DNA of 64,000 nucleotides from Giardia intestinalis (Eukaryota): NCBI GenBank assembly GCA_000002435.2, contig CM018792.1. One strand, given 5' to 3'. Each line of letters begins with the position of its first letter. Within the stretch, counting starts at the first letter, position 1. The position numbers and the translations under genes were made by a program. This document shows, one piece after another, positions 48,803 through 62,204 of the stretch. The notes under the pieces are model-generated. The model was not told the DNA's origin. It did no database searches and saw only the letters and a list, made by a program, of their open reading frames with translations.

Positions 48803-50887
48803 ATGTCTAGACGCCCTCCACAGCCTCTATCACAGCACTCATCGTGCATTAAGCTCGACCAAGATGCTAGTGTGTCAAAGACTATGGTATCCATGACACC
48901 ACTAACTGCCATGCTGAATAGAGTCTATAGTCAGAAGTGCGCCGTGCGTAACGTGTCGCGAGGTACAACAGGTCCGGAATCTAAGAAAAGCGCCTCTAAC
49001 TCGTCAGCAGTTGCCCCCACTCCTTCACTTGGCTCAAAGACAGTTACATCTGAGGACGTACTGAAAGCTATAGATCAACTCTCCATTACCTTCCAGGACA
49101 TAAAGAAATCATCGGATTTGACCGCAAAGTCAGTGTCCCAAACAAAGCCTCTTAGCTCCATAACGGCAAATGACCTGAACGCCCTTCCACAGTCTGGTCA
49201 GGCTGCTGCCGCAGTAGACGTTACTCAGGAAAACGACTCTTCCACAAATCTGGACAATTTTGAATTCACTGGAAAAACAATGCAGGAGAAGGTTGCTGAG
49301 CTTAGAGCTAAGCCGGAGATTTTGAAGAAGATAATAGCAGACTGCAACAACGAAAAGGCAAAGGCAGTGCTAGCCAAGAGAACAAAAAACTTGGAGGACA
49401 GAATAGCACACAGAGCTTTTCTCTCTCGCATGGAGCAGGGGACGGTTCCACAGAGCAATCCCCGCTGTTACACAGATTCACTTCAACACAGGCATTTGTT
49501 TACGCCCTATGCTGCGAGTTATAAGACTACGGGAGATAGAGTTACAACCTCTGGTAACATACCGACCGAATTATCAGCCTCTCTAAACCAAAAGATTCGT
49601 ACTTGCCTCGCTAGTTCCACTCCAAAAGCTGCGGGTGCCTCTGGCTCCGCTCTCGAAATAGGATCCTATCAAGATACGCAGCTTTTCTCGACGGCAGTAC
49701 CTCCGCTTATTCCAGACATTGTGAAGCATAATCGGCTTCTTTCACGCACAGACTACTATACACCAGAAGTGGCAGCTCTCCGGAATGAATACAGAGGCTT
49801 ACGGGAAAATATTAAGATGGAGATGGTACTAAACAACTACGACGCAGTCACCATGAAAGAATATGAAAGGAGCTCTTCAGCATATCGCAACAAGCTACAA
49901 AATGCACCTGGAATTATTCTGCCTCAGACATTCATTATTCAACGCAACAAACTATGCCCCCTAATTTACCTAGCTGCTCGATTTGCGGCTCTCTTCGAAG
50001 TTTCGAAGCTCTACTCAGAAATCAATCTCAATAATGCATTGATGAGCAAGGCTGCGATCACTATTCAGTATGTGTTCCGCGCCTATGCCGCTCGCAGGAA
50101 CCTCGAGCGCATGCGCCAAGCGGCCACCACCATTCAGTTGGCATCGCTCCGCTTTCTCAATAGCCTTCGGCTACAGCGCCGTAGGGCATCGCTGCTTGTT
50201 ATTAAGCGATACCTCATGGATACATACAGACAAAATACATGGATGGCTGCGACGTATATGCACTATCATGGAGCCGCCACGATTGTGCAGTGGCTGCGCT
50301 TTCATTTGAAAAGAAAGAATGCTCGCTTGGAGTATATCCGGGCCTCTCTGCGCCTCTATGATTGGATCGTGACGAAGGAGCTCCTAGGCCAGAAAAAAGT
50401 CAAGGCGGCAGAGGCATTCATGCGTGCTGAGTCAAAGAAGAAGACAAAGCGGGACCCAACCACAGGGAAGAAGATCCTCCCTGTTGCCCCTAGCACTGCT
50501 GTCAATGATGAGGAGATAGGTGTAGCAGTGTTCCAGCCAGATATAATTAATATGCTCAGTAGAATACTATACAATCATATCGCACGTGTGAATGCAGGCC
50601 AACTCGATAAGATACACGAATACATATTGGGCCCTTGCAGAGGCTACTGTGGGGCCTGCATGTCCTTCATCCCCGGGGAAGAGTGCCTTTTAGAGGTAAT
50701 CCGCTGTGCCAAGGGCATTCACGGGACAGAGGGAAGCACCATGGGCGATCTCCAAGCTGCGATCAATGGTTTGCTTTTGGACAATCCACAGTACGTTGAA
50801 AAGGTCGTACTAGACGAGAACTTCGGACACGTGAAGGTCAGCATAGTCAATGGAGCTATTGTGGAGGTGAATGAAGACGAAGAATAA
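48803..50887 (+). CDS. IQ-motif-containing protein, hypothetical
   Basis: ATG confirmed. Several IQ-like calmodulin-binding motifs are present: AAITIQYVFRAYAARRNL, AATTIQLASLRFLNSLRLQRRR and AATIVQWLRFHLKRKNARL. Confidence 0.6.
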   Translation: MSRRPPQPLSQHSSCIKLDQDASVSKTMVSMTPLTAMLNRVYSQKCAVRNVSRGTTGPESKKSASNSSAVAPTPSLGSKTVTSEDVLKAIDQLSITFQDIKKSSDLTAKSVSQTKPLSSITANDLNALPQSGQAAAAVDVTQENDSSTNLDNFEFTGKTMQEKVAELRAKPEILKKIIADCNNEKAKAVLAKRTKNLEDRIAHRAFLSRMEQGTVPQSNPRCYTDSLQHRHLFTPYAASYKTTGDRVTTSGNIPTELSASLNQKIRTCLASSTPKAAGASGSALEIGSYQDTQLFSTAVPPLIPDIVKHNRLLSRTDYYTPEVAALRNEYRGLRENIKMEMVLNNYDAVTMKEYERSSSAYRNKLQNAPGIILPQTFIIQRNKLCPLIYLAARFAALFEVSKLYSEINLNNALMSKAAITIQYVFRAYAARRNLERMRQAATTIQLASLRFLNSLRLQRRRASLLVIKRYLMDTYRQNTWMAATYMHYHGAATIVQWLRFHLKRKNARLEYIRASLRLYDWIVTKELLGQKKVKAAEAFMRAESKKKTKRDPTTGKKILPVAPSTAVNDEEIGVAVFQPDIINMLSRILYNHIARVNAGQLDKIHEYILGPCRGYCGACMSFIPGEECLLEVIRCAKGIHGTEGSTMGDLQAAINGLLLDNPQYVEKVVLDENFGHVKVSIVNGAIVEVNEDEE

Positions 50888-50897
50888 GCCTTTACAG

Positions 50898-53615
50898 TTA
50901 GTTCATGTAAATAGTGTCGCGCCCAACGTATGCACGGACAAGGAGGGCCAGGGCCCGCGATGCCCTGTCTGCCTTTTCAAAGACAACCACTCCGTGTTTC
51001 ATCATTTCCATGCGGAGCTCGTGGAACTTCCATCCTGAGTCGCAAACAAACACCCACGGCTTAGAGTACTCAGGGTTAGCATGAAGAGCAATGAAGCGCC
51101 TGCAGATGGAGTCCTCATCAGCGACGCAATTCTCCCCTATGAGGGCACCGACATTGCCTGCGGTGGTCTTGATGATGTGAGTCTCAGGAACGGCACTGAA
51201 GATCGCACAATCTACAGACAAGCTCTTGAGCAGGATCTCTGCTATCTCCTGGTACGCCCTATCAGGAATGGTTGGGGTCGTGTCTATGATGTCGCTTACA
51301 TCAACAACAGCGCCAATCTTGTACTTCTCGTAGATTGCTTTAATCGCCTCTTTGGTCTCTGAGTCATAAGTGGGAAGTCTAAAGTAGCTCCTGGACCTTT
51401 CATCGCATGGATCAATCGAGCGTGTGCTCAGCTCAAACAGATGGTCTGCAATGCAGCAACATTCGAAGCCTGCATTGGAAAGAGCGGTCACAGATACGTA
51501 TCCTTTCGCATCAAAGCCCTCGCGGAGCCTGTGGATTCTGGGCGCAATCCCAGAGGCCAGATAAATTACGTCGTCGAAACTATCAAATGAGTCACAGACC
51601 ACGGCACCAGCCATGTCCAGAAGCTCACTGAACATGCTGTAGTCACCTGCCAACGAGGCTGTGTGCCCTGCAGCGGCGCTGGATCCCTGCGGTGTGCGAC
51701 CAGATTTATATATGACGATAACCTTTCCGAGATCACGAGCTTGAGCAACCAACTTCATAAGACGAATGCCTTCGTTCATATTGAGGCCCTCCATGTAGAC
51801 ACCGATAACGCGGATTAAGCTCTTCTGGGCGTCTAGATCCTTAAGCTTGGCAAGGGCACGGGAATCAAGCGTATAACCTGCAGAAATCGCATTCCTCTCG
51901 TATGTGCTAGCAGAATCTTCCGTCAACAGCCATTCGATGAAGTCGGTTCCCGATAAGCAAAGCTGATTCCCAACAGATACGGACATGAGAGGACGAACCT
52001 TGTATGCCAAGTTCGACATTCTTGTTATCATGCTGGCACCAGACTGGCAAACCAGAGCAACATTGTTGTTTGGAGAGGCAATAGACCGGATTCTCACGTC
52101 CGAGGACTTGATGGTCAACTTCGACTTCGTCACCTCTAGATCACCCTGGTCATCAAATGCAATATTTGTCTGCAGATTTGTAAGAACATCATCAGAAGTA
52201 GACGACTTTGACTCAAGATAGAACTCGTTGGCTGAGGACTTTGCGGAACTGACAAAAATGGTGTTAACAAGATCCTGCCAGACAAACCCAAGCGTATTGG
52301 GGCCTGAAACAAGGGTGCGGTTGTAAGCAGCACCATAGGAATTCAGTTTCGTGCGTAAGCGTTCTTCTATCTCTTTTCCGTTGGCAGTCTCGGCAAATCC
52401 ACCGGACAAGACAAAGATGCTGTTACAGAGGTTACTGTCTATCAAATCGTTCATAACAAGCTCTGCAGCCTTTGCAGCGACGCCTACAACGGCCAAATCT
52501 ATAGCTTTACCTGCCCTAAATAACAGCAAGTCAGAAACAGTCTTGAAACACGGCCTGCCAAAGATTTCATCAGCAGTGGGGTGGATGCAGAAGACATCGA
52601 TTCCAGGGATCTCCATAAGCTTGCGCAACACGACAGTTGACGGATTTGTGAGACTCTTCGTCGATGCGCCGACGATGACAACGGATTGCGGAGCAAATAG
52701 GGAACCGACCTTGTAGAGAGGCTTGTGCGCACTATACACCGGGATGGCGTCCTCTGCTGTTGCGTATGCTTTGTAGCTAGGATTGGGCAAGATGCGAACA
52801 ACAGCATCAAGGGCGAGTAGATTGCCTGTCTCCCTCTCCACAACCGCAGGGTTGATCTCTATCTCACGTATGACATACTTCGTTGTCGCATTGTTTCTAC
52901 AATAGTGCCTCAGAAGTGCCTGCAAGATGCTCAATGGAGAAACCACCTGATCTATAGAGGAAATCAACCGCTTTGAGCCACGAACCTTGCCCAGTAGAAA
53001 TTGACTAACAGGCAAGCGCTCCAGAGCGGCCATAGCAGCAGTCGAGTTCGCTAGATTGATCCAACTCGGAAGAAAAATGGAAGAGTGTCCCTGGCGCATA
53101 ACCTTCTTGTAATATTCCACTCCAGTTCCTCCGAGACCGAAACAGACACAAGGCCCGAACCCGGTATCTTCAAAGGCAGAGATCAGAAGCTCGCCGTTCG
53201 ACATCCCACTGTCATAAAACTTCGCCATCTCGACGACAATGACACCCTCGAGGTTGTGGCCAGCGCTCTTGAGCTTGTTGACAAATGGTTCCAGGTCAGC
53301 CTCGATGTTCGAGCGGTCCTTGAAGAGCATGATCCCGCCGATGTCCGTCTTGTGGAGGCACCCGGGAATGTGGCACTTGATGACGTACTTCTGGTTGGGC
53401 TTCATGAAGGTCTTGATCTGGGAAGCCAGGGACGAATGCAGAGGGAAGTATCTGAACTCGGGAACCTTGATGCCGATTAGCTCGAAGAGCTCATACGCCT
53501 CGTACTCATAGAGGAGCCCGTCAGGGCGCGAGGAAGCCTGTTCAAAGATGCTTGCTATCTCAGCCTCATGCCTCAGGGCAAAGTAGTCCTCGTGATGGAA
53601 ATCGGACGGGAGCAT
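50898..53615 (-). CDS. Acetyl-CoA synthetase (ADP-forming, NDP-forming acyl-CoA synthetase family), fused single chain
   Basis: ATG confirmed at 53613-53615. The ATP-grasp (beta-type) region lies at the N-terminus: EYEAYELFELIGIKVPEF...KYVIKCHIPGCLHKTDIGGIMLF. The CoA-binding Rossmann segment (SVVIVGASTKS) follows. The ligase-CoA segment carries the phospho-histidine loop GHTASLAG. The product has 905 aa. Confidence 0.8.
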   Translation of the reverse strand: MLPSDFHHEDYFALRHEAEIASIFEQASSRPDGLLYEYEAYELFELIGIKVPEFRYFPLHSSLASQIKTFMKPNQKYVIKCHIPGCLHKTDIGGIMLFKDRSNIEADLEPFVNKLKSAGHNLEGVIVVEMAKFYDSGMSNGELLISAFEDTGFGPCVCFGLGGTGVEYYKKVMRQGHSSIFLPSWINLANSTAAMAALERLPVSQFLLGKVRGSKRLISSIDQVVSPLSILQALLRHYCRNNATTKYVIREIEINPAVVERETGNLLALDAVVRILPNPSYKAYATAEDAIPVYSAHKPLYKVGSLFAPQSVVIVGASTKSLTNPSTVVLRKLMEIPGIDVFCIHPTADEIFGRPCFKTVSDLLLFRAGKAIDLAVVGVAAKAAELVMNDLIDSNLCNSIFVLSGGFAETANGKEIEERLRTKLNSYGAAYNRTLVSGPNTLGFVWQDLVNTIFVSSAKSSANEFYLESKSSTSDDVLTNLQTNIAFDDQGDLEVTKSKLTIKSSDVRIRSIASPNNNVALVCQSGASMITRMSNLAYKVRPLMSVSVGNQLCLSGTDFIEWLLTEDSASTYERNAISAGYTLDSRALAKLKDLDAQKSLIRVIGVYMEGLNMNEGIRLMKLVAQARDLGKVIVIYKSGRTPQGSSAAAGHTASLAGDYSMFSELLDMAGAVVCDSFDSFDDVIYLASGIAPRIHRLREGFDAKGYVSVTALSNAGFECCCIADHLFELSTRSIDPCDERSRSYFRLPTYDSETKEAIKAIYEKYKIGAVVDVSDIIDTTPTIPDRAYQEIAEILLKSLSVDCAIFSAVPETHIIKTTAGNVGALIGENCVADEDSICRRFIALHANPEYSKPWVFVCDSGWKFHELRMEMMKHGVVVFEKADRASRALALLVRAYVGRDTIYMN

Positions 53616-53766: not shown

Positions 53767-55950
53767 ATGGTTATCTGCACAGAAAGTAAAGCGGAGGCAG
53801 GCAGGATCAGAAGCTTGTCGGCCGGCGATAGTCGGCTTATCTTGGCAACCCAGCAATTTCCAGATCCGTATAAGGTCGTTAGCGCATTACTTGAGAATTC
53901 CTTGGATGCAGGTGCCTCAGAAATTGCAATTGTCTTAGAGGGCATGGGGCTCAAGAGTATCACTGTCAATGATAATGGATGTGGACTGGACTTATCTACT
54001 CTCCAAGCACTCGGGAGCTGTAGGGTCACGACAGCTACTTCTCAGCCAGGCAGCTTGAACCGTAAGGGCGAGTCTATCTTCTTAATATCTGCCTTAAGTA
54101 CAGTCTTAGTCACCAGCTCATTGGGAGACGACCCCTATGAAAGAGTTGTTAGTGAAGATACAAGCAGCGCAAAGCACGCCACACGAGCAGGCAGGGGGAC
54201 CACTGTTGTTGTTCAAGATCTATATAGATCAATCCCTGTTCGTCAAAGATACTTCTCGACTCCGTCTCTTCGCAAGAAGCTGCTTCTGTCCATCACTGAT
54301 CTGATTCAGTCATATGCACTGGCTAACTATACGCTGGGTTTTCGACTAATTGTGGATGGAGCTGTGCACATTGATGTCTCTTCGGGATCCAAGAATTCCA
54401 TCCACGACCGCTACGTTGAGCTTTTCGGCAGAGATGTTCGATCTCTCGTTGGTTTCTTTTCATTTGAAACGCGTCTGGGCTATACTGTTAAGGCCAGTCT
54501 TGCGTGCCCAGATGCAGGCATTACTCCGCAAAGTAAGCTGGGACATGCCCGTAAGATCTTTCTTTCTACCAATGGAAGGCCCATACTTTGTCCCTCGTTG
54601 ATTGAGGCCCTTCAGCAAGTGTATGCACGGATCTCTGCAACCAACGTTCCGATTGGCGCGTTAAATCTCGTGCTTCCGTTGGGGACTTATGCACTGGCAC
54701 GGAGCACACCCTATGACACTCTTCAAATGCAAGGGCTGAGCGTATTTATCGATCTCTTATCAGAGGAGTATCTTGCATGGCTCCTGAGATATAACAAATC
54801 GACAATCACAAATGGGCATCTGGGACGCGACGTTACTAGCAAGAGTTTGATAGTCAGAGCAGCTAAAGAGAAGTCAGTTAATTCACCATGTCCTAAATCT
54901 AGCTTTGGAGTTAGATCTCAGCAACGAGATACTGTGCCAGATAATATTGTCATCAGTCGCGTATCGCACACTAAGGCGGCATCCTTCTTCCATACGCGGA
55001 AGCCTGAATTACGTCAAGCATATCATTCTGAGACAAACACCAATACCGAACCACCCCCTGGAGGCACACCTTCAGTGCTGGGAATCGTTGGCTTTTCAAA
55101 GCTACAAAGCTCACTCTCCAATCCAGGTCCATCTGATGCTTCGGATTCCATAAAAGTTGAAAGTCAATCATGTGACCCTGAAAGCAAGGTGAGGATTGGA
55201 CCAGTAAGAAGAAGAGGCTCGGCATCGGGATTCAGACAGCAAGACTTTAATAATCTAAAGTACATATGTCAATATAACCAATCGTTCCTAATAACTCAGC
55301 TTAACAACACCTTCTACCTGATCGACCAACACGCAGCTCATGAAGCCAAGCATTTTAGCGACTACTGGCATAACCCACACTGCTACTTATCGAGGCAGAA
55401 GACTATCACACCCCTGAAGCTAAGGCTTCGACCAGATGAAAAGCTGTGTCTTGAGGAGTTTCTCTCTAGTGCGATATTTGATATTATTGGATTTGAACTG
55501 TGCTTGTCAGAGAATTACGTGCTTATTTTTTCTTTCCCATCTCTTTTTGGGCAAACTCTTACGGAGGAGGACTTCAGAGAGTACCTTTTGTCACTGTATG
55601 GACACACCAGGGAACATGTTGAGAGCATCATATGCGCCAAGAGTACTGGATCAAAACCCAGGGAGAAATCACTTCTCTGCTTACTGCATAATAATATAGC
55701 TCCGCCCAGAATTAGAAAAATCTTCGCGTCAAAATCATGCAAGGCCTCCGTACGCCTCGGAGACCCGCTCTTAGACTCAACTGCCAAACGTATCATTGCA
55801 GATCTGGCCCGTTGCGAGAAGCCATTTAACTGTCCCCATGGAAGACCTGTATTACGATTCTTAGACCTTGCGCCACGAGCAGATTCTACCGATGAAGATC
55901 TGCCCCATGCAGAAGAATTACACAGTGATGTGATCAATAGCGAGGACTAA
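53767..55950 (+). CDS. MutL homologue of the PMS1/PMS2 (endonuclease-type) class
   Basis: ATG confirmed. The GHKL ATPase motifs LLENSLDAGASEIAIV and VNDNGCGL are present. The C-terminal region has DQHAAHE and the metal-binding CPHGRP motif (FNCPHGRPVLRF). Confidence 0.8.
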   Translation: MVICTESKAEAGRIRSLSAGDSRLILATQQFPDPYKVVSALLENSLDAGASEIAIVLEGMGLKSITVNDNGCGLDLSTLQALGSCRVTTATSQPGSLNRKGESIFLISALSTVLVTSSLGDDPYERVVSEDTSSAKHATRAGRGTTVVVQDLYRSIPVRQRYFSTPSLRKKLLLSITDLIQSYALANYTLGFRLIVDGAVHIDVSSGSKNSIHDRYVELFGRDVRSLVGFFSFETRLGYTVKASLACPDAGITPQSKLGHARKIFLSTNGRPILCPSLIEALQQVYARISATNVPIGALNLVLPLGTYALARSTPYDTLQMQGLSVFIDLLSEEYLAWLLRYNKSTITNGHLGRDVTSKSLIVRAAKEKSVNSPCPKSSFGVRSQQRDTVPDNIVISRVSHTKAASFFHTRKPELRQAYHSETNTNTEPPPGGTPSVLGIVGFSKLQSSLSNPGPSDASDSIKVESQSCDPESKVRIGPVRRRGSASGFRQQDFNNLKYICQYNQSFLITQLNNTFYLIDQHAAHEAKHFSDYWHNPHCYLSRQKTITPLKLRLRPDEKLCLEEFLSSAIFDIIGFELCLSENYVLIFSFPSLFGQTLTEEDFREYLLSLYGHTREHVESIICAKSTGSKPREKSLLCLLHNNIAPPRIRKIFASKSCKASVRLGDPLLDSTAKRIIADLARCEKPFNCPHGRPVLRFLDLAPRADSTDEDLPHAEELHSDVINSED

Positions 55951-58900
55951 GTCTGCACTATGTTATTGTACAGTCCGTCTGCCAAGTGCTCTACATTTGT
56001 GCTTAGAACCACTCTGGAAAACTCAGTGGACTCAATTACTAAAATGTCTGAAATGACTTTTTGAACAGAGTACCCATCGGGCAAAGAAACCATTACCCTT
56101 GCCTCGACAGCTTCGTCCCATATGAGAATATTAAGAAGGAAGCAAACCGTTGTGGGAAGCAGTGGAACACATGCGGTGCACAAACGATCTAAGGTTATGC
56201 CAGGACAAAGTGAAATGAGAGATATTATTTGGCGAAGAGATAGCTCCGCTTCGTATCTATTACCATCAGCATAATCTATAGAGCAGTTTGCAGGGCTGAT
56301 GGCAGAAAACTCCGTCGCAAACTGCTCATAGCTGGAACTTGCTAAGAAGGTCTCGAGAGGAACAAACACCGTTTCAGTTATTAGTCGTCTAGGGACGAAG
56401 AAACCGCTGCCTAGTAAAATATCTTTACTCTCTGGGCAGTTGAAAAGCGTCAGGCTTAAGTTAGTATCATTATACTTCTGCAGCAATATGTCTATGCCTT
56501 GTTTTTGTGTAGAATTACAATCTTCAGTCAAATTGACTAAGGGACAGACAAGCTCCAACCCAATCTCTTGGAAGCCCTGGATTGCGTCACCTATCATTGC
56601 GCTCACAGCGTCGTCCATGCCAGCATACGTCTCAAGGATATCTTCTACGGGGTTGAATGATGTATCTTCCTCACCAAATTCCAGATCAATTATAGAGCAG
56701 GGATCGATAATCCTGAGCTCTTCTATCGTGCTCCCTGATAGGCGGTACCGCTGACGATGTAGTCCAAACAGAATAGAAGGTAGGAGGAGAAAGGCATGGT
56801 GTACAGTCATTGTACCCATATCGATATTACTGAGGTAGCTATTTCGGCTATCGGCAGATATTAGGCTAGGCTTCTGTAGTGTTTTGGAAACTGAGTACCC
56901 CAAAGATCCGTATTCTTGTTGTCGAGCATACCCAGATGCCAACAGATATTGCAAAGAAAAGTCACTCATGCTATTACTAGCCATTGACTCAATGGCGCGA
57001 AGGGCGGCTCCATCGGCTGTAATGTTAACTTGAGATGGATTCCATAGCGTACATGCCATGAACATCCTGATTTCTCTGGCCCACTTGTGCTGCTGCAAGA
57101 TCACCTTGTTGCGAAAACTGCACACAATATCCCGCAACCTCTGACACGCTAATGCTTTCCCGTTACTGGTGTCGTTAAGGAGTACATTTGTAGAGTGTAT
57201 TATTGCATTGCACAAGTAAGGCAAGCACAAGAAGCTAATGAGACTTTGAATGGTGTCGCCGCTTCGTGATAGACTTTGTTTTTCAGTATAATCTGTTCTT
57301 CTTAGAAGAAGACGGTGTGTACTATAACATACTTTGAGAGCGCGCTGATCTGTGTTATATGTTATGATAGGGTTGGCATGGTGGAGCATATTGCACGATA
57401 AAATACACTGTATTAGAAGAGATATATGCTCCTCCGCATCTATCATGTGGGAACAATCATAACAGGTAGCTGGACTTGCAGACGATTGACGGGCGATATC
57501 GTTGCACAGCAAGAGAAAACCGGGCTGCCAAAGATCAAAGAATCTCTTGTCGTACACATATGTTATGCAATCAGGGTCAGCTGCTCCTTCAAAATCAAAT
57601 TCCACCTTAAGGGAATCTGAGTTTATGCAGTTGATAAGAATGTCTTTTTCAATCAGTAGCTTAGATTGTAATTTTTTAGACGGAGATTGGTTTATTTTAT
57701 TAGTCAATAAGTACAGCAGGTTGGCCACTCTGACCGTTTCAGATGGATCAGAAAGTTGCCTTTCTCGATAGGTGTTACGGACAATGGACGTAATTACATC
57801 TGAGAACTTTCCTAAGAGCAAGCTTCTCTCCTTAGCTGATGGAAGATCTATGAGGACATCTATCTCTGGGCTTACAAGAGAAAGCGCGGCCATTGAATAT
57901 ATCCGTCCGTACGTGATAAAATCCCTCTTTGTTGCGTTGGTTTTTATGTACTTTTCAATCACAGCTGTTAAGGTACAACTGGATTGTTCTTGCAATAAAG
58001 CTACCACGCCGTCCTCTTCACTGTTGGGCTTGCTAGAAGCATATCCTCTCATCCATGGTGATACTACACGAAATAGGGACATATAATGCATCATGCAGTG
58101 CTCCCAATATCGAAGTTCATCATCACTCAAGCTAATATATCGGCGTGATGCTCTGTATTGTGCTACCATCTCTGTGAGGTCCTCTACTGTCAACGCACGT
58201 ACTTGCTCCGTGGGATGGTTCTTGGGTTCTGATTCCTCGCATAGCAAGAGTGCAAATTCTTCACGAAGATGCAGCTCTTGTTTCTGCTTATGTCTTTGCC
58301 TTTGCAATGCAGGTGTGAGACGTGAAGAGCGAGCAGACCGCATTCGCTGGATGTCTCTGTTATACTTTTGAAAGATTGATGCTCCTGTAGCCTTCATTGC
58401 AGCAATTGATTCGGTGCTGAATGCCAATAGCCAAGGACTATTTGTAAACAAGGACATGGAGCAGTACTCGGTTCCCCTACTGTCAGTAGGCTGCATGTTA
58501 ATGGAGAGAGACGACGAATTACCCCCTCTGGGCCTCATGTTCAGTAGCACCTTATCAACCCAGTATGAAACTGGAGCAGAAGCTCGAGCCACAAGGGCCT
58601 GAGAAAGCTGAACCTTATGTACTTTATGCCTGGTATCTGGTACGCACTGAATGAGGATATTCTTATCTATGTCTTCGGGCTTCAAAGAAACACTGGGAAT
58701 GTAAACACAATGTTGAGGATTGTGGTCATTAGGTTCGGATTGGCTCAGGAAATCATAAAAGGCCAATGTGACGATCTTCATAGAGTGCAGAATAAAGTGC
58801 AAAGTGTTCCACTGGGAAGAGCGATAGTACTCAAAGGCTTTATCCAGCGAGCCATCAAAGTGAAGATCTAGGTACTTTAAAGGCAGATCGCTCACAGCTG

Positions 58901-61900
58901 CAGTGGCTAAGCTGTGATAGTCCAGTATAAGCAGATTCGTGACAGAGTGCTGCAGACTTGCTCTTGCGTAGCTACACTCCTCGGCCTCAAAGAGCCTTTG
59001 CAGCTCCTTCTGCACTGCACCCATAAATGCATTGATGTGAACAATGACACCTTGTTGGCCTATAGTATCGCAAAGAGACATGGCTGCTTCCTGGGCTTTG
59101 GACACAGACGATTGGATAGTGGAGGCAAAATCTAAATCACCCAGTCGTTCCTTCAAAAATGCCAGTGTTTCTGAATTGACTATCCACGAACGTATCAGGG
59201 TATAGATAGCTAGCTCATTGCACAAGCAGGATAAGCTTATTGGTCCCTCATCTGTGCACAGCTTTAAAGCCATGTACACGCGCAAAGAAAAGTCCTCTAG
59301 AAGCGACCAGAACAGCACTAGCTCCTGTTCTGTAGAAACAGAGATGGGCTCCAGAAGCTCTATGCTTATGGTGTCAGCTTCATGAACTGCTCTGATTGTG
59401 GCCCCAATGCCAGATACGTAAAGCGAGGAGTACAGAGCTGACAAAACGTTATTCAGTATAATGGGGTGTCTCTTAAGATCACTAAGCTTTAGCGAAGGAA
59501 GATGCGAAACCGTCCTATGAATATGATTCTTGATCTTAGCATCTGGCTGTTCAATGGACCAGTGAAGAACATCTATATGCTGGAGCCACTCACGATATTT
59601 TCCCATTCTTAGAACAAAAAAATTATTAAGCACCAATAAATAAAGTGCCGGATTGCTCACTTTATAAATAAAAGTATTGGGAAAAGAAAGCAGATAGGGC
59701 AAGAAAAGATGGTAGAGGGGAGAAGATTCTGGGAAAGGAAACAGGTATGCATATTCTGAGAAGGTAAGAGCCTCGCAAAGAGATATGTCAGACACAGATG
59801 AATGAGCCATGTCCTTGATTGATTGCAAGAGTACGATGTGCAGGAGCATGAGCTTGCGCAGAGTGTACTTTCTCTTTGTGCGAGAGATATCAGCCTTAAT
59901 AGCCATAAGCGTCTCAGAACAAGAAGAAAGATATGCAGAGACTTGAGCCATTGACTGTTCGCTCCGTGTGGACCCTGCTAAGACTACAACTTTTACGTTG
60001 GAGCGCTTCACATGACTATTCAAATCATGGAGAAATACATCTGTGCTTTCATAACCAGTCAATTCTGGCATGCAAGAGGTCATCCAGGATAGAGTAGATG
60101 ACTCAGACCCAGAGGACAGCTCTGCACTACCTTCTCGGCCAGGATCATTAAGGTAGTCTTGTTCGAGGTCAGCACCTATGCCTGCGTCTGTCTCGTCACG
60201 AGCTAGCAAAGTTGGAAGAGTGGATAGGTAGACCTTGAGACGATCTAAAAGATTCGGCATATTCTGAAGAAACCCAGAGGTAGGAGAGTCACCAAGTTCG
60301 TGCGTATCCATTACAAATATATCTGAACGATAGTAAACAGTACATGTCTTTGCGCCTATTGACACAGAAGACTCGAGTATGTACCCTGTCTCCAGAAGGT
60401 AATCAATTGACCGCTGCACAACCTTTCTGTCTGTCTTTTTCTTTGTTAGGTCTTTGAATCCATAAGAGAGTGGAAAGGAGGTATATACCTCTGCAGGAAG
60501 CAGTGAAGCAAGTTGGACAAGATCTTGCTGGATGTATAGCGGTGTGAGCCGAAAGAAGCTGAGAATAAGCTGTGCTTTGGCACTCATTGCAATATTTCTC
60601 TGAGTATCATATGTTATAAGGGCACACTCGAGAGCATCAGGAAAGAAGCAGCCCAAAGGTGTTAGAATAGGTGTGCTGGGCTTCTGAGGAGCATTATCTG
60701 TTGGTGTGGCGCACAGAAGCGTCTGCTTAAGAGGAGAGTCTTCCTCCTGATGCATCTCATGAACAGTTATACTATTTGTAGATAAGCTGACACTGAGGGC
60801 AGAGCTAGTGGGGCCACTATGATTAGTTGAAAGAAAGCCAGCAAGGCGGGAATAACCATACCTGATTTTGCGCTCAAATGATCGTCTAGAGCCAGACCCA
60901 GAGGATGTCTTCGCAGGGGAGTCGAAAAGAGGCGTGTAAAGAGCTTGAGGTCCATGAGGAAAGTACCAATATTTGAACGCCCCCGATTCCTCGGACTTTA
61001 CAACGGGAAAAGAGGAGACTAGGACGTCTGAAATCCATTCCATGACCTTTCGTGCTAGACAGAATTGGTCTCTCAAATTAGTAAGCTGAATGCCTTCTTC
61101 TCCAGCCTGAAAAATCTTTATAAGTAGGAGCTCTGTCACAGTAGATACCCTATTTCCATAAGTGAGTGGAATTAAAAGACTTACTTCGATAGGAGTAAAT
61201 CCATCAATGGGATACAAGGTCAGTGATGGTAAGACTTGCTGCGCTGATGCAAGGGTTTGCGCGGAAGTAAGAAAAAGAAAGTTGGGGCTAAATGTCATAG
61301 GAGACATGGGGCTCATATGAAAGATGTTCTGCGAGCCCTTGTTTTCACGGCGGATTGCACTAAGAGGCTTGAAACTGAGACTTTGGGGTGTCAAAAAGCG
61401 AGAGTATACCAGTGTATCCCCCAATTTTACATAGCTTCCTAGAACACCTGCCTTATCGAGGGCAGTCGTAATAGTGTCAAGCTGAACATTGAGAGTTTTA
61501 CGAGCCTTTGCGGAATCTACGCCTAGTTCCTTAATAAAGTGATCTAGGATGTCCTCGTATGCTTGCTCTCTTCCAGTAGAGGCTAGATACTGACACACCA
61601 TCATGGCAGTGGGAGCCTTTTGGCCTTCTGGCTGGTGAGAATGAGCCCCAAAGCTGCTTAACCCCCGAGTATACTCTATAAATGCTTCACGCAACTCTTC
61701 ATCAGATCTCCTACCAAGAAAGATGGTGGCCCACACGATGTTGGATGTGTTAGTTCCCCAGTAGTCCTTGATTGCCCCTGTAAGTGTCACAGAAAGTGAA
61801 TACACCAGTCTGTTTCCTGATAAGATCTTAATGAAGCGAGACACCTGCCGACTGTCCAGCTTAGTCTTTGAAGAAATTTCCGTGGCAAGAATTCCGTGAG

Positions 61901-62204
61901 AAAAGGATGCAGCGACGGCACGAAACACAGGCTCACCATCTTCCGAGAGTCGCGTGTTCTTGGTCCCTAATACTTCCGCAGACCAACTAGGAGATGGATA
62001 AATTCGCTCGCCGAAGTCAGTAAAGCCAGGGTACTTCCTGAAAAACTCAAAGAGGCGGCGGGAAGCCTCTGAAACATCGTTAGCAGCCGAGAATTTTGGC
62101 TGCTCTAGACGAAGAAAAGTCTCTATCTCCTCCAGAGATGCCCCATTGGGTCCCTGGATGGCCATGAAGAACTTCGTGAATTGTGCGATTTGATGCCAAA
62201 ACAT
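55947..62204 (-). CDS. Very large hypothetical protein of 2,085 aa
   Basis: ATG confirmed at 62202-62204. The ORF is continuous. The N-terminal ~250 aa resemble repeated winged-helix modules. Family is unknown. Its 3' end overlaps the MutL stop by 4 nt. Confidence 0.65.
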   Translation of the reverse strand: MFWHQIAQFTKFFMAIQGPNGASLEEIETFLRLEQPKFSAANDVSEASRRLFEFFRKYPGFTDFGERIYPSPSWSAEVLGTKNTRLSEDGEPVFRAVAASFSHGILATEISSKTKLDSRQVSRFIKILSGNRLVYSLSVTLTGAIKDYWGTNTSNIVWATIFLGRRSDEELREAFIEYTRGLSSFGAHSHQPEGQKAPTAMMVCQYLASTGREQAYEDILDHFIKELGVDSAKARKTLNVQLDTITTALDKAGVLGSYVKLGDTLVYSRFLTPQSLSFKPLSAIRRENKGSQNIFHMSPMSPMTFSPNFLFLTSAQTLASAQQVLPSLTLYPIDGFTPIEVSLLIPLTYGNRVSTVTELLLIKIFQAGEEGIQLTNLRDQFCLARKVMEWISDVLVSSFPVVKSEESGAFKYWYFPHGPQALYTPLFDSPAKTSSGSGSRRSFERKIRYGYSRLAGFLSTNHSGPTSSALSVSLSTNSITVHEMHQEEDSPLKQTLLCATPTDNAPQKPSTPILTPLGCFFPDALECALITYDTQRNIAMSAKAQLILSFFRLTPLYIQQDLVQLASLLPAEVYTSFPLSYGFKDLTKKKTDRKVVQRSIDYLLETGYILESSVSIGAKTCTVYYRSDIFVMDTHELGDSPTSGFLQNMPNLLDRLKVYLSTLPTLLARDETDAGIGADLEQDYLNDPGREGSAELSSGSESSTLSWMTSCMPELTGYESTDVFLHDLNSHVKRSNVKVVVLAGSTRSEQSMAQVSAYLSSCSETLMAIKADISRTKRKYTLRKLMLLHIVLLQSIKDMAHSSVSDISLCEALTFSEYAYLFPFPESSPLYHLFLPYLLSFPNTFIYKVSNPALYLLVLNNFFVLRMGKYREWLQHIDVLHWSIEQPDAKIKNHIHRTVSHLPSLKLSDLKRHPIILNNVLSALYSSLYVSGIGATIRAVHEADTISIELLEPISVSTEQELVLFWSLLEDFSLRVYMALKLCTDEGPISLSCLCNELAIYTLIRSWIVNSETLAFLKERLGDLDFASTIQSSVSKAQEAAMSLCDTIGQQGVIVHINAFMGAVQKELQRLFEAEECSYARASLQHSVTNLLILDYHSLATAAVSDLPLKYLDLHFDGSLDKAFEYYRSSQWNTLHFILHSMKIVTLAFYDFLSQSEPNDHNPQHCVYIPSVSLKPEDIDKNILIQCVPDTRHKVHKVQLSQALVARASAPVSYWVDKVLLNMRPRGGNSSSLSINMQPTDSRGTEYCSMSLFTNSPWLLAFSTESIAAMKATGASIFQKYNRDIQRMRSARSSRLTPALQRQRHKQKQELHLREEFALLLCEESEPKNHPTEQVRALTVEDLTEMVAQYRASRRYISLSDDELRYWEHCMMHYMSLFRVVSPWMRGYASSKPNSEEDGVVALLQEQSSCTLTAVIEKYIKTNATKRDFITYGRIYSMAALSLVSPEIDVLIDLPSAKERSLLLGKFSDVITSIVRNTYRERQLSDPSETVRVANLLYLLTNKINQSPSKKLQSKLLIEKDILINCINSDSLKVEFDFEGAADPDCITYVYDKRFFDLWQPGFLLLCNDIARQSSASPATCYDCSHMIDAEEHISLLIQCILSCNMLHHANPIITYNTDQRALKVCYSTHRLLLRRTDYTEKQSLSRSGDTIQSLISFLCLPYLCNAIIHSTNVLLNDTSNGKALACQRLRDIVCSFRNKVILQQHKWAREIRMFMACTLWNPSQVNITADGAALRAIESMASNSMSDFSLQYLLASGYARQQEYGSLGYSVSKTLQKPSLISADSRNSYLSNIDMGTMTVHHAFLLLPSILFGLHRQRYRLSGSTIEELRIIDPCSIIDLEFGEEDTSFNPVEDILETYAGMDDAVSAMIGDAIQGFQEIGLELVCPLVNLTEDCNSTQKQGIDILLQKYNDTNLSLTLFNCPESKDILLGSGFFVPRRLITETVFVPLETFLASSSYEQFATEFSAISPANCSIDYADGNRYEAELSLRQIISLISLCPGITLDRLCTACVPLLPTTVCFLLNILIWDEAVEARVMVSLPDGYSVQKVISDILVIESTEFSRVVLSTNVEHLADGLYNNIVQT

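What the first reader, a model, noticed from the sequence alone, without database searches (positions are those of the whole stretch)
50898..53615. ADP-forming acetyl-CoA synthetase with an ATP-grasp domain at the N-terminus, and of unusual length
In my reading of the sequence the ATP-grasp (beta-type) region (EYEAYELFELIGIKVPEF...CLHKTDIGGIMLF) precedes the CoA-binding and ligase-CoA (alpha-type) regions (VVIVGAS...GHTASLAG). This is a beta-alpha arrangement in a 905-aa chain. The characterised Giardia enzyme that I recall is shorter and described as alpha-beta. This may therefore be a second, differently organised ACD paralogue.
Basis: partly seen in the sequence, partly recalled or inferred. 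Interest (0 to 1): 0.55.

Follow-up and report, generated by a model that had tools for sequence, protein, structure and literature searches.

The report
Giardia's second-type ADP-forming acyl-CoA synthetase
This is an intact, already annotated Giardia gene (GL50803_16667) for an ADP-forming acyl-CoA synthetase whose ATP-binding half comes first; that domain order is normal for a large, biochemically unstudied enzyme subfamily of anaerobic bacteria and protists, so the finding is real but fairly ordinary.

Summary
Window 50898..53615 (−) is a 905-aa ORF with ATP-grasp_5 (aa 27-275), then CoA_binding_2 (311-411), then Succ_CoA_lig (577-684). A structure model shows that aa ~700-905, unassigned by Pfam, is ACD domain 5. 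The fold is therefore a complete [3-4-1-2-5] NDP-forming acyl-CoA synthetase, collinear with Nitrosopumilus Nmar_1309 (PDB 9y43).

The protein is 100% identical to XP_001709605 (GL50803_16667, G. intestinalis WB, annotated "Acyl-CoA synthetase"). It is not the classical ACS (GL50803_13608). Giardia also has a 50%-identical paralogue, GL50803_86511.

Neither the domain order nor the length is exceptional. An exhaustive profile search found 517 relatives at E<1e-30, and 135 of the 148 best share this order at about 730-860 aa. They come from anaerobic bacteria and anaerobic protists (Spironucleus, Hexamita, Dysnectes, Anaeramoeba, Stygiella). The extra length comes mostly from loop insertions, chiefly aa 460-510.

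Both catalytic histidines (H88, H651) and the acidic and Mg ligands are invariant, and dN/dS is 0.04. About a quarter of the bacterial homologues lie beside 2-oxoacid:ferredoxin oxidoreductase genes.

The likeliest function is acyl-CoA + ADP + Pi → acid + ATP + CoA; the substrate is unknown. In passing, I found a ~335-nt gene-conversion tract shared by the two Giardia paralogues.

The parts
50898..53615 (-). Complete gene for the 905-aa NDP-forming acyl-CoA synthetase-like protein (GL50803_16667 orthologue); the stop codon is at 50898-50900
   Evidence: ORF listing. 100% identical to P0132 = XP_001709605.1/KAE8303695.1. dN/dS 0.039 against isolate DH. A-rich sequence immediately upstream of the ATG and no in-frame upstream ATG.
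52791..53537 (-). ATP-grasp region (ACD domains 3-4, 'beta' part), aa 27-275
   Evidence: Pfam ATP-grasp_5, E 1.5e-32. Foldseek matches to ACD1 beta chains with TM ~0.8. K80, E253, N255 and D270 are invariant in the family.
53352..53354 (-). Codon of His88 (LHKTDIGG), the ATP-site histidine that takes part in phosphoryl transfer
   Evidence: Aligns with the LHKTDVGG motif of Nmar_1309, where H69 is the ATP-site histidine (PMC13018889). H in 144 of 146 family members.
52704..52790 (-). Linker between domain 4 and domain 1, aa 276-304
   Evidence: No Pfam domain. Poorly conserved among diplomonads. Part of it (aa 281-291) is absent from bacterial members.
52272..52703 (-). CoA-binding Rossmann domain (ACD domain 1), aa 305-448
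   Evidence: Pfam CoA_binding_2 at aa 311-411. Collinear alignment with Nmar_1309 to aa ~442. G316, S318, G406, E409, G438 and N440 invariant.
52086..52238 (-). Lineage-specific loop insertion, aa 460-510, between domains 1 and 2
   Evidence: Absent from at least 80% of bacterial members, from the other eukaryotes and from paralogue 86511. AF2 pLDDT below 50 for aa 455-501. Ser/Thr/Asp-rich sequence.
51516..52070 (-). Flavodoxin-like ligase domain (ACD domain 2) with the swinging loop, aa 516-700; it includes a 32-aa helical insertion at aa 567-598
   Evidence: Pfam Succ_CoA_lig, E 2.5e-26. Q524-S525-G526, G549-N550 and E609 invariant. Insertion mapped.
51663..51665 (-). Codon of His651 (GHTASLAG), the swinging-loop phosphohistidine
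   Evidence: Aligns with the SHTGSLGG motif of Nmar_1309, where H503 is the swinging-loop histidine. H in 146 of 146 family members.
50901..51515 (-). ACD domain 5 (C-terminal part of the 'alpha' unit), aa 701-905; not recognised by Pfam
   Evidence: The model region aa ~300-905 covers the whole ACD1 alpha chain (domains 1, 2, 5) with TM ~0.81 over ~617 columns, and all of Nmar_1309 with TM 0.82. An HMM of this region hits between the ligase and ATP-grasp parts of alpha-beta proteins. G716, D724 and D778 invariant.
53176..53511 (-). Gene-conversion tract shared with paralogue GL50803_86511 (CDS nt ~105-440, aa ~29-147)
   Evidence: 97-100% nucleotide identity with the paralogue's DNA (L001), against 45-57% in the flanking CDS and 33-45% upstream. 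99% protein identity against ~50% overall.

Best explanation
The gene encodes a catalytically competent, single-chain NDP-forming acyl-CoA synthetase of the ACD superfamily with domain order [3-4-1-2-5]. By analogy with solved relatives, the ATP-grasp domains bind ADP/ATP. His88 there exchanges a phosphoryl group with His651, which sits on a mobile loop of domain 2. That loop swings into the site formed by domains 1, 2 and 5, where CoA and the acyl group bind and an acyl-phosphate intermediate forms. In a fermentative organism such as Giardia, the likeliest physiological direction is acyl-CoA + ADP + Pi -> acid + CoA + ATP in the cytosol, downstream of the pyruvate/2-oxoacid:ferredoxin oxidoreductases. 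It would then be a paralogous substrate-level phosphorylation enzyme beside the classical ACS (GL50803_13608). Shown: the fold, the domain order, conservation of every catalytic residue tested, purifying selection, and linkage to OFOR genes in bacterial homologues. Inferred: activity, direction, cytosolic location and substrate. Acetyl-CoA is possible. Propionyl-CoA from PFOR-2 acting on 2-oxobutyrate is an attractive candidate. Aryl- or branched-chain acyl-CoAs are suggested only by the bacterial iorAB context.
For: Domain content and order come from Pfam and from collinear sequence alignment to Nmar_1309. The AF2 model (pLDDT 77, pTM 0.81) matches 9y43 at E 2.5e-37, TM 0.82, and matches ACD1 alpha and beta chains. 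Catalytic residues are invariant in a 146-sequence family alignment: H88 144/146, H651 146/146, E609 145/146, D724 145/146, D778 146/146, N255 and D270 145/146, K80 144/146. Their roles are taken from PMC13018889. dN/dS is 0.039. In bacteria, 18 of 72 homologous loci carry 2-oxoacid:ferredoxin oxidoreductase genes next to the gene on the same strand. These are iorA/iorB (the IorB equivalog scores 246 bits against a cut-off of 222) or a KorB-gamma fusion (TPP_enzyme_C + POR). This mirrors Pyrococcus ACS2, whose alpha gene shares an operon with IOR (PMC3942289). The Giardia protein has no N-terminal extension relative to bacterial homologues. Giardia PFOR-2 uses 2-oxobutyrate, and propionyl-CoA is a poorer substrate of the classical ACS (PMC5355454). 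The paralogue 86511 has been detected as a protein in trophozoites (PMC7190177).
Against: No biochemical data exist for any member of this subfamily. Identity to characterised enzymes is only 17-22%. All NCBIfam equivalog scores are far below their cut-offs. The OFOR linkage holds in only about 25% of sampled bacterial loci, and operon logic does not transfer to a eukaryote. Giardia has no IOR. The closest solved structure, Nmar_1309, works physiologically in the opposite direction (acid activation). I found no direct expression evidence for 16667 itself in the texts I could read. The 50-aa disordered insertion has no assigned role.
Confidence: 0.7

Rival explanations
1. Same enzyme chemistry, but the physiological direction is acid activation (acid + ATP + CoA -> acyl-CoA + ADP + Pi). 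The enzyme would scavenge short-chain or aryl acids, abundant in the gut lumen, for acylation or lipid remodelling, as Nmar_1309 activates 3-hydroxypropionate.
For: The best structural and sequence match is an acid-activating enzyme with the same domain order (PMC13018889). ACD reactions are reversible. Giardia cannot make fatty acids de novo and relies on activating scavenged acids (PMC4510421 abstract).
Against: Similarity to Nmar_1309 is remote: 19% identity, and NF045492 scores 118 bits against a cut-off of 1300. Bacterial homologues lie next to OFORs, which produce acyl-CoAs. Anaerobic protists use ACDs for ATP gain (PMC11316075).
Confidence: 0.15
2. A non-catalytic CoA-binding or regulatory protein that kept the ACD fold, as suggested by Guo et al. 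[quoted passage not shown]
For: That suggestion is in the literature (PMC4510421). The protein is divergent, carries large insertions and scores below all equivalog cut-offs.
Against: Both phosphohistidines, the Glu and Asp partners and the ATP-grasp Mg ligands are invariant across bacteria and eukaryotes. A binding-only protein would not be expected to keep them. All five domains are complete, and dN/dS is 0.039.
Confidence: 0.07
3. A Pat/PatZ-like protein acyltransferase or acyl-CoA sensor: an ACD-like scaffold of about 900 aa that uses acyl-CoA to modify proteins.
For: The length is similar to bacterial Pat proteins. Many ACD-GNAT fusion proteins were among the word-indexed hits, and E. coli PatZ appears among the fold matches (ranks 15-16).
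Against: There is no GNAT domain. Pfam finds none, and the C-terminal 200 aa is ACD domain 5. The order is beta-alpha, not alpha-beta-GNAT. The PatZ match covers only the ACD-like part (TM 0.42 on the target).
Confidence: 0.03

Closest known systems
[quoted passage not shown]
   Same: Single chain with the same domain order [3-4-1-2-5]. Best sequence hit in the PDB (E 1.6e-25, collinear) and best fold hit (TM 0.82). Both histidines (H69/H503 against H88/H651) and the Glu (E462 against E609) are conserved.
   Different: Only 19% identity. 705 aa against 905 aa: the Giardia protein has insertions at aa 460-510 and 567-598 plus smaller ones. The NCBIfam equivalog score is 118 against a cut-off of 1300. 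Nmar_1309 is an archaeal carbon-fixation enzyme that works in the acid-activating direction.
Classical ADP-forming acetyl-CoA synthetase of Giardia (GL50803_13608; 'ACS1' of diplomonads) and Entamoeba ACD
   Same: Same superfamily and presumably the same two-histidine chemistry, in the same organism and presumably the same compartment (cytosol) (PMC3483818; PMC7542792).
   Different: A different gene and locus, not in this window. By my recollection of Sanchez et al. 2000 (not tested here) it is 726 aa with alpha-beta order. The metamonad ACS1/ACS2/ACS3 passages I read do not mention the 16667/86511 type.
Archaeal heterotetrameric ACDs (Ca. Korarchaeum ACD1, PDB 4xyl etc.; Pyrococcus furiosus ACS1/ACS2)
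   Same: The alpha chain (domains 1, 2, 5) and beta chain (domains 3, 4) each superpose on the corresponding parts of the model with TM ~0.8. Pyrococcus ACS2 alpha shares an operon with IOR, like many bacterial members of this subfamily.
   Different: Two separate subunits rather than one chain, 20-22% identity, and no long loop insertions.
Uncharacterised bacterial and protist beta-alpha ACD subfamily (e.g. Spironucleus EST42817/EST44983, Stygiella ANM86835, Anaeramoeba KAJ3432681; Phycisphaerae, Acidobacteriota, Elusimicrobia and Desulfobacterota homologues)
   Same: Full-length collinear homology, including a recognisable domain 5 (270-920 bits). Same order in 135 of 148. Same invariant residues. 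This is the family the gene actually belongs to.
   Different: Typical members are 730-860 aa and lack the aa 460-510 insertion. Some eukaryotic members carry N-terminal extensions that the Giardia protein lacks. None has been studied biochemically as far as I could find.

Membership tests
NDP-forming acyl-CoA synthetase (ACD) superfamily | All five structural domains are present: 1 CoA-binding, 2 flavodoxin-like ligase, 5 ligase-CoA C-terminal, and 3-4 ATP-grasp | tested here: met
   Pfam finds domains 3-4, 1 and 2. The fold search shows that aa ~300-905 cover domains 1-2-5 of ACD1 alpha, and that the whole chain covers Nmar_1309.
NDP-forming acyl-CoA synthetase (ACD) superfamily | Phosphohistidine on the swinging loop of domain 2 (GH[TA]xxxAG motif) | tested here: met
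   H651 in GHTASLAG. It aligns with the SHTGSLGG motif of Nmar_1309, whose swinging-loop histidine is H503. Invariant in 146/146.
NDP-forming acyl-CoA synthetase (ACD) superfamily | Second histidine in the ATP-grasp domain, which distinguishes ACDs from succinyl-CoA synthetase | tested here: met
   H88 in LHKTDIGG. It aligns with the LHKTDVGG motif of Nmar_1309, whose ATP-site histidine is H69. Conserved in 144/146.
NDP-forming acyl-CoA synthetase (ACD) superfamily | Acidic residues that stabilise the phosphohistidine (Glu in domain 2; Asp in domain 5 of the partner chain) | tested here: inconclusive
   E609 aligns with E462 of Nmar_1309 and is conserved in 145/146. Domain 5 has two invariant Asp residues, D724 and D778, but I had no residue-level alignment of domain 5 to decide which one corresponds to D602'.
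NDP-forming acyl-CoA synthetase (ACD) superfamily | Catalysis of acyl-CoA + NDP + Pi <-> acid + CoA + NTP | not testable with these tools
   Needs an enzyme assay. No biochemical report was found for 16667, 86511 or any subfamily member.
ADP-forming acetyl-CoA synthetase proper (EC 6.2.1.13; NCBIfam TIGR02717 / NF045494 equivalogs) | Score at or above the curated equivalog cut-off | tested here: not met
   TIGR02717 scores 122 bits against a cut-off of 567. NF045494 scores 132 against 1200.
ADP-forming acetyl-CoA synthetase proper (EC 6.2.1.13; NCBIfam TIGR02717 / NF045494 equivalogs) | Identity with the purified and cloned Giardia ACS | tested here: not met
   The characterised ACS is GL50803_13608. 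This gene is GL50803_16667 = XP_001709605. A direct sequence comparison was not possible because the sequence of 13608 could not be obtained.
[quoted passage not shown] | Domain order [3-4-1-2-5] | tested here: met
   order as described in PMC13018889.
[quoted passage not shown] | Equivalog-level sequence similarity | tested here: not met
   118 bits against a cut-off of 1300; 19% identity in the structural alignment.
Pat/PatZ protein acetyltransferases (ACD-like + GNAT) | C-terminal GNAT acetyltransferase domain | tested here: not met
   No GNAT hit in Pfam at E<=1. The C-terminal region folds as ACD domain 5.
Hydrogenosomal 'divergent ACS' of Spironucleus salmonicida | Orthology with the Hexamitinae-restricted organellar enzyme | tested here: not met
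   That enzyme's orthologues are reported only in Hexamitinae (PMC11437800), whereas this family is present in Giardia. Its accession could not be retrieved because no supplement is held, so this is a test by taxon distribution, not by sequence.

The most novel reading that the evidence does not exclude
The 16667/86511 type is a fourth, overlooked lineage of ACD enzymes in anaerobic eukaryotes, beside ACS1, ACS2 and ACS3. It would have been acquired from anaerobic bacteria, where it is partnered with indolepyruvate/2-oxoacid:ferredoxin oxidoreductases. It would be specialised for non-acetyl substrates such as propionyl-CoA from threonine/2-oxobutyrate, or aryl/branched acyl-CoAs from amino-acid fermentation. 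Giardia would then gain ATP from more than acetyl-CoA. The two copies would be kept identical in the N-terminal ATP-grasp lobe by recurrent gene conversion, perhaps because that lobe has to fit a shared partner or the homodimer interface.
Probability: 0.3. Interest if true: 0.5.

Novelty: new member of a known kind. Interest (0 to 1): 0.3.

Why it matters
Substrate-level phosphorylation by ACD is the main known ATP-yielding step beyond glycolysis and the arginine pathway in Giardia. ACD has no human homologue, so it is discussed as a drug target. If GL50803_16667 and GL50803_86511 are active ACDs, current metabolic reconstructions are incomplete: the one I read lists only GL50803_13608. Inhibiting the classical ACS alone might then be buffered by the paralogues. 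Evolutionary scenarios for ATP generation in metamonads (ACS1/2/3) would also be missing a widely distributed gene family. The finding does not reveal a new kind of system. The gene is already annotated, and its domain permutation is already documented structurally in archaea.

Tried and rejected
1. The word-indexed homology search suggested a diplomonad-only family, with scores falling from about 600 to about 100 bits to prokaryotes, nearly all of them alpha-beta. The exhaustive profile search showed this was a sensitivity artefact. I dropped the idea of a diplomonad-specific invention.

2. I tested whether the gene is the 'divergent ACS paralogue' of the Spironucleus hydrogenosome. I rejected this on taxon distribution. 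The accession could not be checked because no supplement is held.

3. In some searches I passed coordinates that omitted the Met codon. The 'not in the collection' result is therefore an artefact. The look-up of encoding contigs with the correct protein also found nothing, yet the protein is identical to cluster member P0132.

4. The look-up of encoding contigs for P0124 failed. The paralogue's DNA was obtained through P0003 instead.

5. I could not obtain the sequence of the classical ACS (GL50803_13608). No close relative was available as a query, and Brasen et al. 2008 is not held. The alpha-beta versus beta-alpha comparison within Giardia therefore rests on recollection.

6. The Pat-like (GNAT) reading is rejected.

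7. The other 905-aa ORF in the window (3745..6462) is a kinesin and is unrelated.

8. Gene neighbours in Giardia (an IQ-motif protein and a MutL homologue) say nothing about function. I used bacterial neighbourhoods instead.

9. The NJ tree is crude. The eukaryote clade has only 36% bootstrap support, so I make no claim about a single transfer or a donor lineage.
Full report
**1. What is there**

Window 50898..53615 (minus strand) is a single uninterrupted ORF of 905 aa starting at the first ATG after a stop. The ATG is preceded by an A-rich stretch, and there is no in-frame upstream ATG.

Pfam finds three domains in this order:
- ATP-grasp_5 at aa 27-275 (E 1.5e-32)
- CoA_binding_2 at aa 311-411 (E 4.7e-8)
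- Succ_CoA_lig at aa 577-684 (E 2.5e-26)

Pfam leaves two stretches unassigned, aa 412-576 and aa 685-905. An AlphaFold2 model built on a 12-sequence alignment (mean pLDDT 77, pTM 0.81) resolves both.
- The whole chain superposes on the single-chain [3-4-1-2-5] enzyme Nmar_1309 (PDB 9y43; Foldseek E 2.5e-37, TM 0.82 on the target).
- Residues ~300-905 cover the entire alpha subunit (domains 1, 2 and 5) of Ca. Korarchaeum ACD1 (TM ~0.81).
- The C-terminal 200 aa is therefore a divergent ACD domain 5, and the protein has the complete five-domain fold.

**2. Identity of the gene**

The window comes from Giardia duodenalis (intestinalis) WB.
- The protein is 100% identical to cluster member P0132 = XP_001709605.1 / KAE8303695.1, named 'Acyl-CoA synthetase'.
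- Table 1 of Guo et al. 2015 equates XP_001709605 with GL50803_16667 (905 aa, ATP-grasp_5) (PMC4510421).
- Isolate DH (A2) differs at 5 residues, P15 (E) at 44, and the assemblage B orthologue is 90% identical.
- Synteny with the MutL homologue and the 694-aa gene is kept in DH.
- Against DH there are 37 synonymous and 5 non-synonymous differences, giving dN/dS 0.039. The gene is a functional coding sequence under strong constraint.

The purified and cloned Giardia ACS is a different gene, GL50803_13608 (PMC3483818). It is not in this window: tblastn with the query or its paralogue hits only the gene itself.

Unexpectedly, Giardia carries a second gene of this same type, GL50803_86511 (XP_001710279; 902 aa in the current annotation). 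It is 50% identical to the query. Its product has been detected as a protein in trophozoite lysates (PMC7190177).

The only published comment I found on either gene is in Guo et al. 2015. [quoted passage not shown]

**3. The arrangement is typical of a large family**

The first, word-indexed homology search showed diplomonad orthologues (Hexamita, Spironucleus) and then a drop to about 100 bits. Of the 114 prokaryotic hits listed, 108 are alpha-beta ordered (104 coab-lig-grasp, 3 with a detectable domain 5 in between, 1 lacking the CoA-binding match) and only 6 are beta-alpha. That pattern looked like a diplomonad oddity.

The exhaustive profile search changed the picture. It found 10,919 hits at E<=1e-3 and 517 at E<1e-30. 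Of the best 148, 135 have the order ATP-grasp, CoA-binding, ligase, domain 5. They match the profile end to end and are about 730-860 aa long.

Named members are anaerobic protists:
- a second Spironucleus salmonicida copy
- two Dysnectes brevis proteins
- Anaeramoeba flamelloides
- the jakobid Stygiella incarcerata

A scan of one genome per prokaryotic species found at least 578 bacterial loci. The best 80 are full-length collinear at 24-29% identity. They come from Phycisphaerae/Planctomycetota, Acidobacteriota, Elusimicrobia, Krumholzibacteriota, Gemmatimonadota, Desulfobacterota, Myxococcota, Rectinema/Treponemataceae, Bacteroidia and Fibrobacteraceae.

In a rough NJ tree:
- The known eukaryotic sequences cluster together without any of the bacterial loci, but support is weak (36/100).
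- The Giardia + Hexamita + Spironucleus + Dysnectes-A group is well supported (95/100).
- The two Giardia paralogues are sisters. The conversion tract described in section 6 biases this result.

The [3-4-1-2-5] permutation itself is documented in the literature as one of several domain shufflings in the superfamily (PMC13018889).

**4. Where the extra length comes from**

About 130 residues of the Giardia protein lie in segments absent from at least 80% of bacterial members. The two largest are:
- aa 460-510. This segment is also absent from paralogue 86511 and from the other eukaryotes. It is Ser/Thr/Asp-rich and modelled with pLDDT below 50.
- aa 567-598, a helical insertion in domain 2.

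The paralogue has a different insertion at the same domain 1/2 junction. The 'unusual length' is therefore a family baseline of about 750-800 aa plus lineage-specific loop insertions. No additional domain is present.

**5. How it probably works**

The residues that define ACD chemistry are conserved in the six diplomonad sequences and in a 146-sequence alignment spanning bacteria and eukaryotes:

| Residue | Motif or role | Conservation |
|---|---|---|
| H88 | LHKTDIGG; ATP-site histidine (H69 of Nmar_1309) | 144/146 |
| H651 | GHTASLAG; swinging-loop phosphohistidine (H503) | 146/146 |
| E609 | equivalent of E462 | 145/146 |
| D724, D778 | two Asp residues in domain 5 | 145/146 and 146/146 |
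| K80, E253, N255, D270 | ATP-grasp lysine and Mg ligands | 139-145/146 |

Equivalences come from the alignment, and roles from PMC13018889.

This conservation argues strongly against a merely CoA-binding pseudo-enzyme. It argues for the standard mechanism: phosphoryl transfer between nucleotide, H88 and H651, then an acyl-phosphate intermediate, then thioester formation or cleavage.

For the physiological direction I used bacterial gene context, because Giardia's own neighbours are uninformative (an IQ-motif protein and a MutL homologue).
- In 18 of 72 bacterial loci, the adjacent gene or genes on the same strand, usually directly upstream, encode a 2-oxoacid:ferredoxin oxidoreductase.
- In some loci these are iorA + iorB. 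IorB passes its NCBIfam cut-off (246 against 222 bits). IorA scores 439-517, below its cut-off of 651.
- In others it is a TPP-binding beta subunit fused to a gamma domain (Pfam TPP_enzyme_C + POR).

OFORs make acyl-CoAs, and ACDs convert them to acids with ATP gain. The characterised precedent is Pyrococcus ACS2. Its alpha gene lies in the IOR operon, and the enzyme uses phenylacetyl- and indoleacetyl-CoA (PMC3942289).

Giardia has no IOR. It does have two PFORs. PFOR-2 also oxidises 2-oxobutyrate, and the resulting propionyl-CoA is a poorer substrate of the classical ACS (PMC5355454). This leaves a plausible role for extra ACDs, but that is inference. Substrate and direction are untested.

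The Giardia protein has no N-terminal extension, so a cytosolic location is the default expectation.

**6. Observation in passing: gene conversion**

The two Giardia paralogues are about 50% identical overall but 99% identical over aa 29-147.

At the DNA level, CDS nt ~105-440 (window 53176..53511) is 97-100% identical to the paralogue's DNA recovered from a Giardia metagenome contig (L001). The flanking coding sequence is 45-57% identical and the upstream region 33-45%.

The 5' boundary differs between assemblages:
- In assemblage B, the 16667 orthologue resembles 86511 from residue 1 (93% over aa 1-28).
- In WB and P15, that segment is only 43% and 36% identical between the paralogues.

This points to recurrent, independent conversion events. 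The tract covers the N-terminal lobe of the ATP-grasp domain, including H88. It probably explains the remark in the GS genome paper that acyl-CoA synthetase genes were mis-assembled because of highly conserved nucleotide stretches (PMC2723961).

**7. Comparison with what is known, and verdict**

The protein meets the structural and catalytic-residue criteria of the ACD superfamily. It shares the domain order of Nmar_1309. It does not reach the equivalog threshold of any characterised enzyme: 118-132 bits against cut-offs of 567-1300.

It is not the classical Giardia ACS and not a Pat-type acetyltransferase (no GNAT domain). By taxon distribution it is not the Spironucleus hydrogenosomal ACS. 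The metamonad ACS1/ACS2/ACS3 passages I could read do not mention this type.

- The gene is already annotated.
- The acetyl-CoA specificity is unproven.
- The organisation is typical of its subfamily.
- There are two such genes in Giardia.

I rate it a new, uncharacterised member of a known kind, of modest interest. The value lies in pointing to an unstudied ACD subfamily that may add to substrate-level phosphorylation in anaerobic protists.

Not verified here: the 726-aa length and alpha-beta order of GL50803_13608. These rest on my recollection of Sanchez et al. 2000.

Noticed in passing
window 53176..53511 (minus strand; CDS nt ~105-440) compared with L001:~4180-4515: A ~335-nt tract is 97-100% identical between GL50803_16667 and its paralogue GL50803_86511, although the genes are otherwise about 50% identical. 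The 5' boundary differs between assemblages A/E and B, which implies recurrent gene conversion over the N-terminal ATP-grasp lobe.
   Followed up: yes
P0144 (Dysnectes), P0146 (Anaeramoeba), P0148, P0161, P0170: Several eukaryote-like members of the family carry N-terminal extensions of 20-140 aa rich in Ser, Lys, Arg and Leu. These could be targeting signals for mitochondrion-related organelles. The Giardia proteins lack them.
   Followed up: no
P0006 and P0141 (Spironucleus salmonicida); P0142 and P0144 (Dysnectes brevis): Other fornicates also have two copies of this beta-alpha type. In the NJ tree, Spironucleus copy A groups with the Giardia pair and copy B groups with Hexamita. This suggests an older duplication in diplomonads in addition to the one in the Giardia lineage.
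   Followed up: partly
Bacterial loci L018 and five others, the gene directly downstream of the ACD homologue: In 6 of 72 bacterial loci, a Peptidase_S49 (signal-peptide-peptidase-like) gene follows on the same strand. No explanation was sought.
   Followed up: no
window 3745..6462 (minus strand): A second ORF of exactly 905 aa. It is a kinesin (Pfam Kinesin, E 4e-51) and has no similarity to the ACD gene, so the equal length is coincidence.
   Followed up: yes
window 48803..50887 (+), 53767..55950 (+), 55947..62204 (-): Gene packing is very tight. The 694-aa gene (weak IQ-motif hit only) ends 10 bases before the ACD gene's stop codon, in convergent orientation. The MutL homologue overlaps the end of a 2085-aa ORF with no Pfam match by 4 bases.
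   Followed up: partly
one search compared (method): The word-indexed protein search missed essentially the whole bacterial and protist beta-alpha subfamily and returned mainly alpha-beta ACDs and ACD-GNAT fusions. This created a false impression of a lineage-restricted family, and only the exhaustive profile search corrected it.
   Followed up: yes
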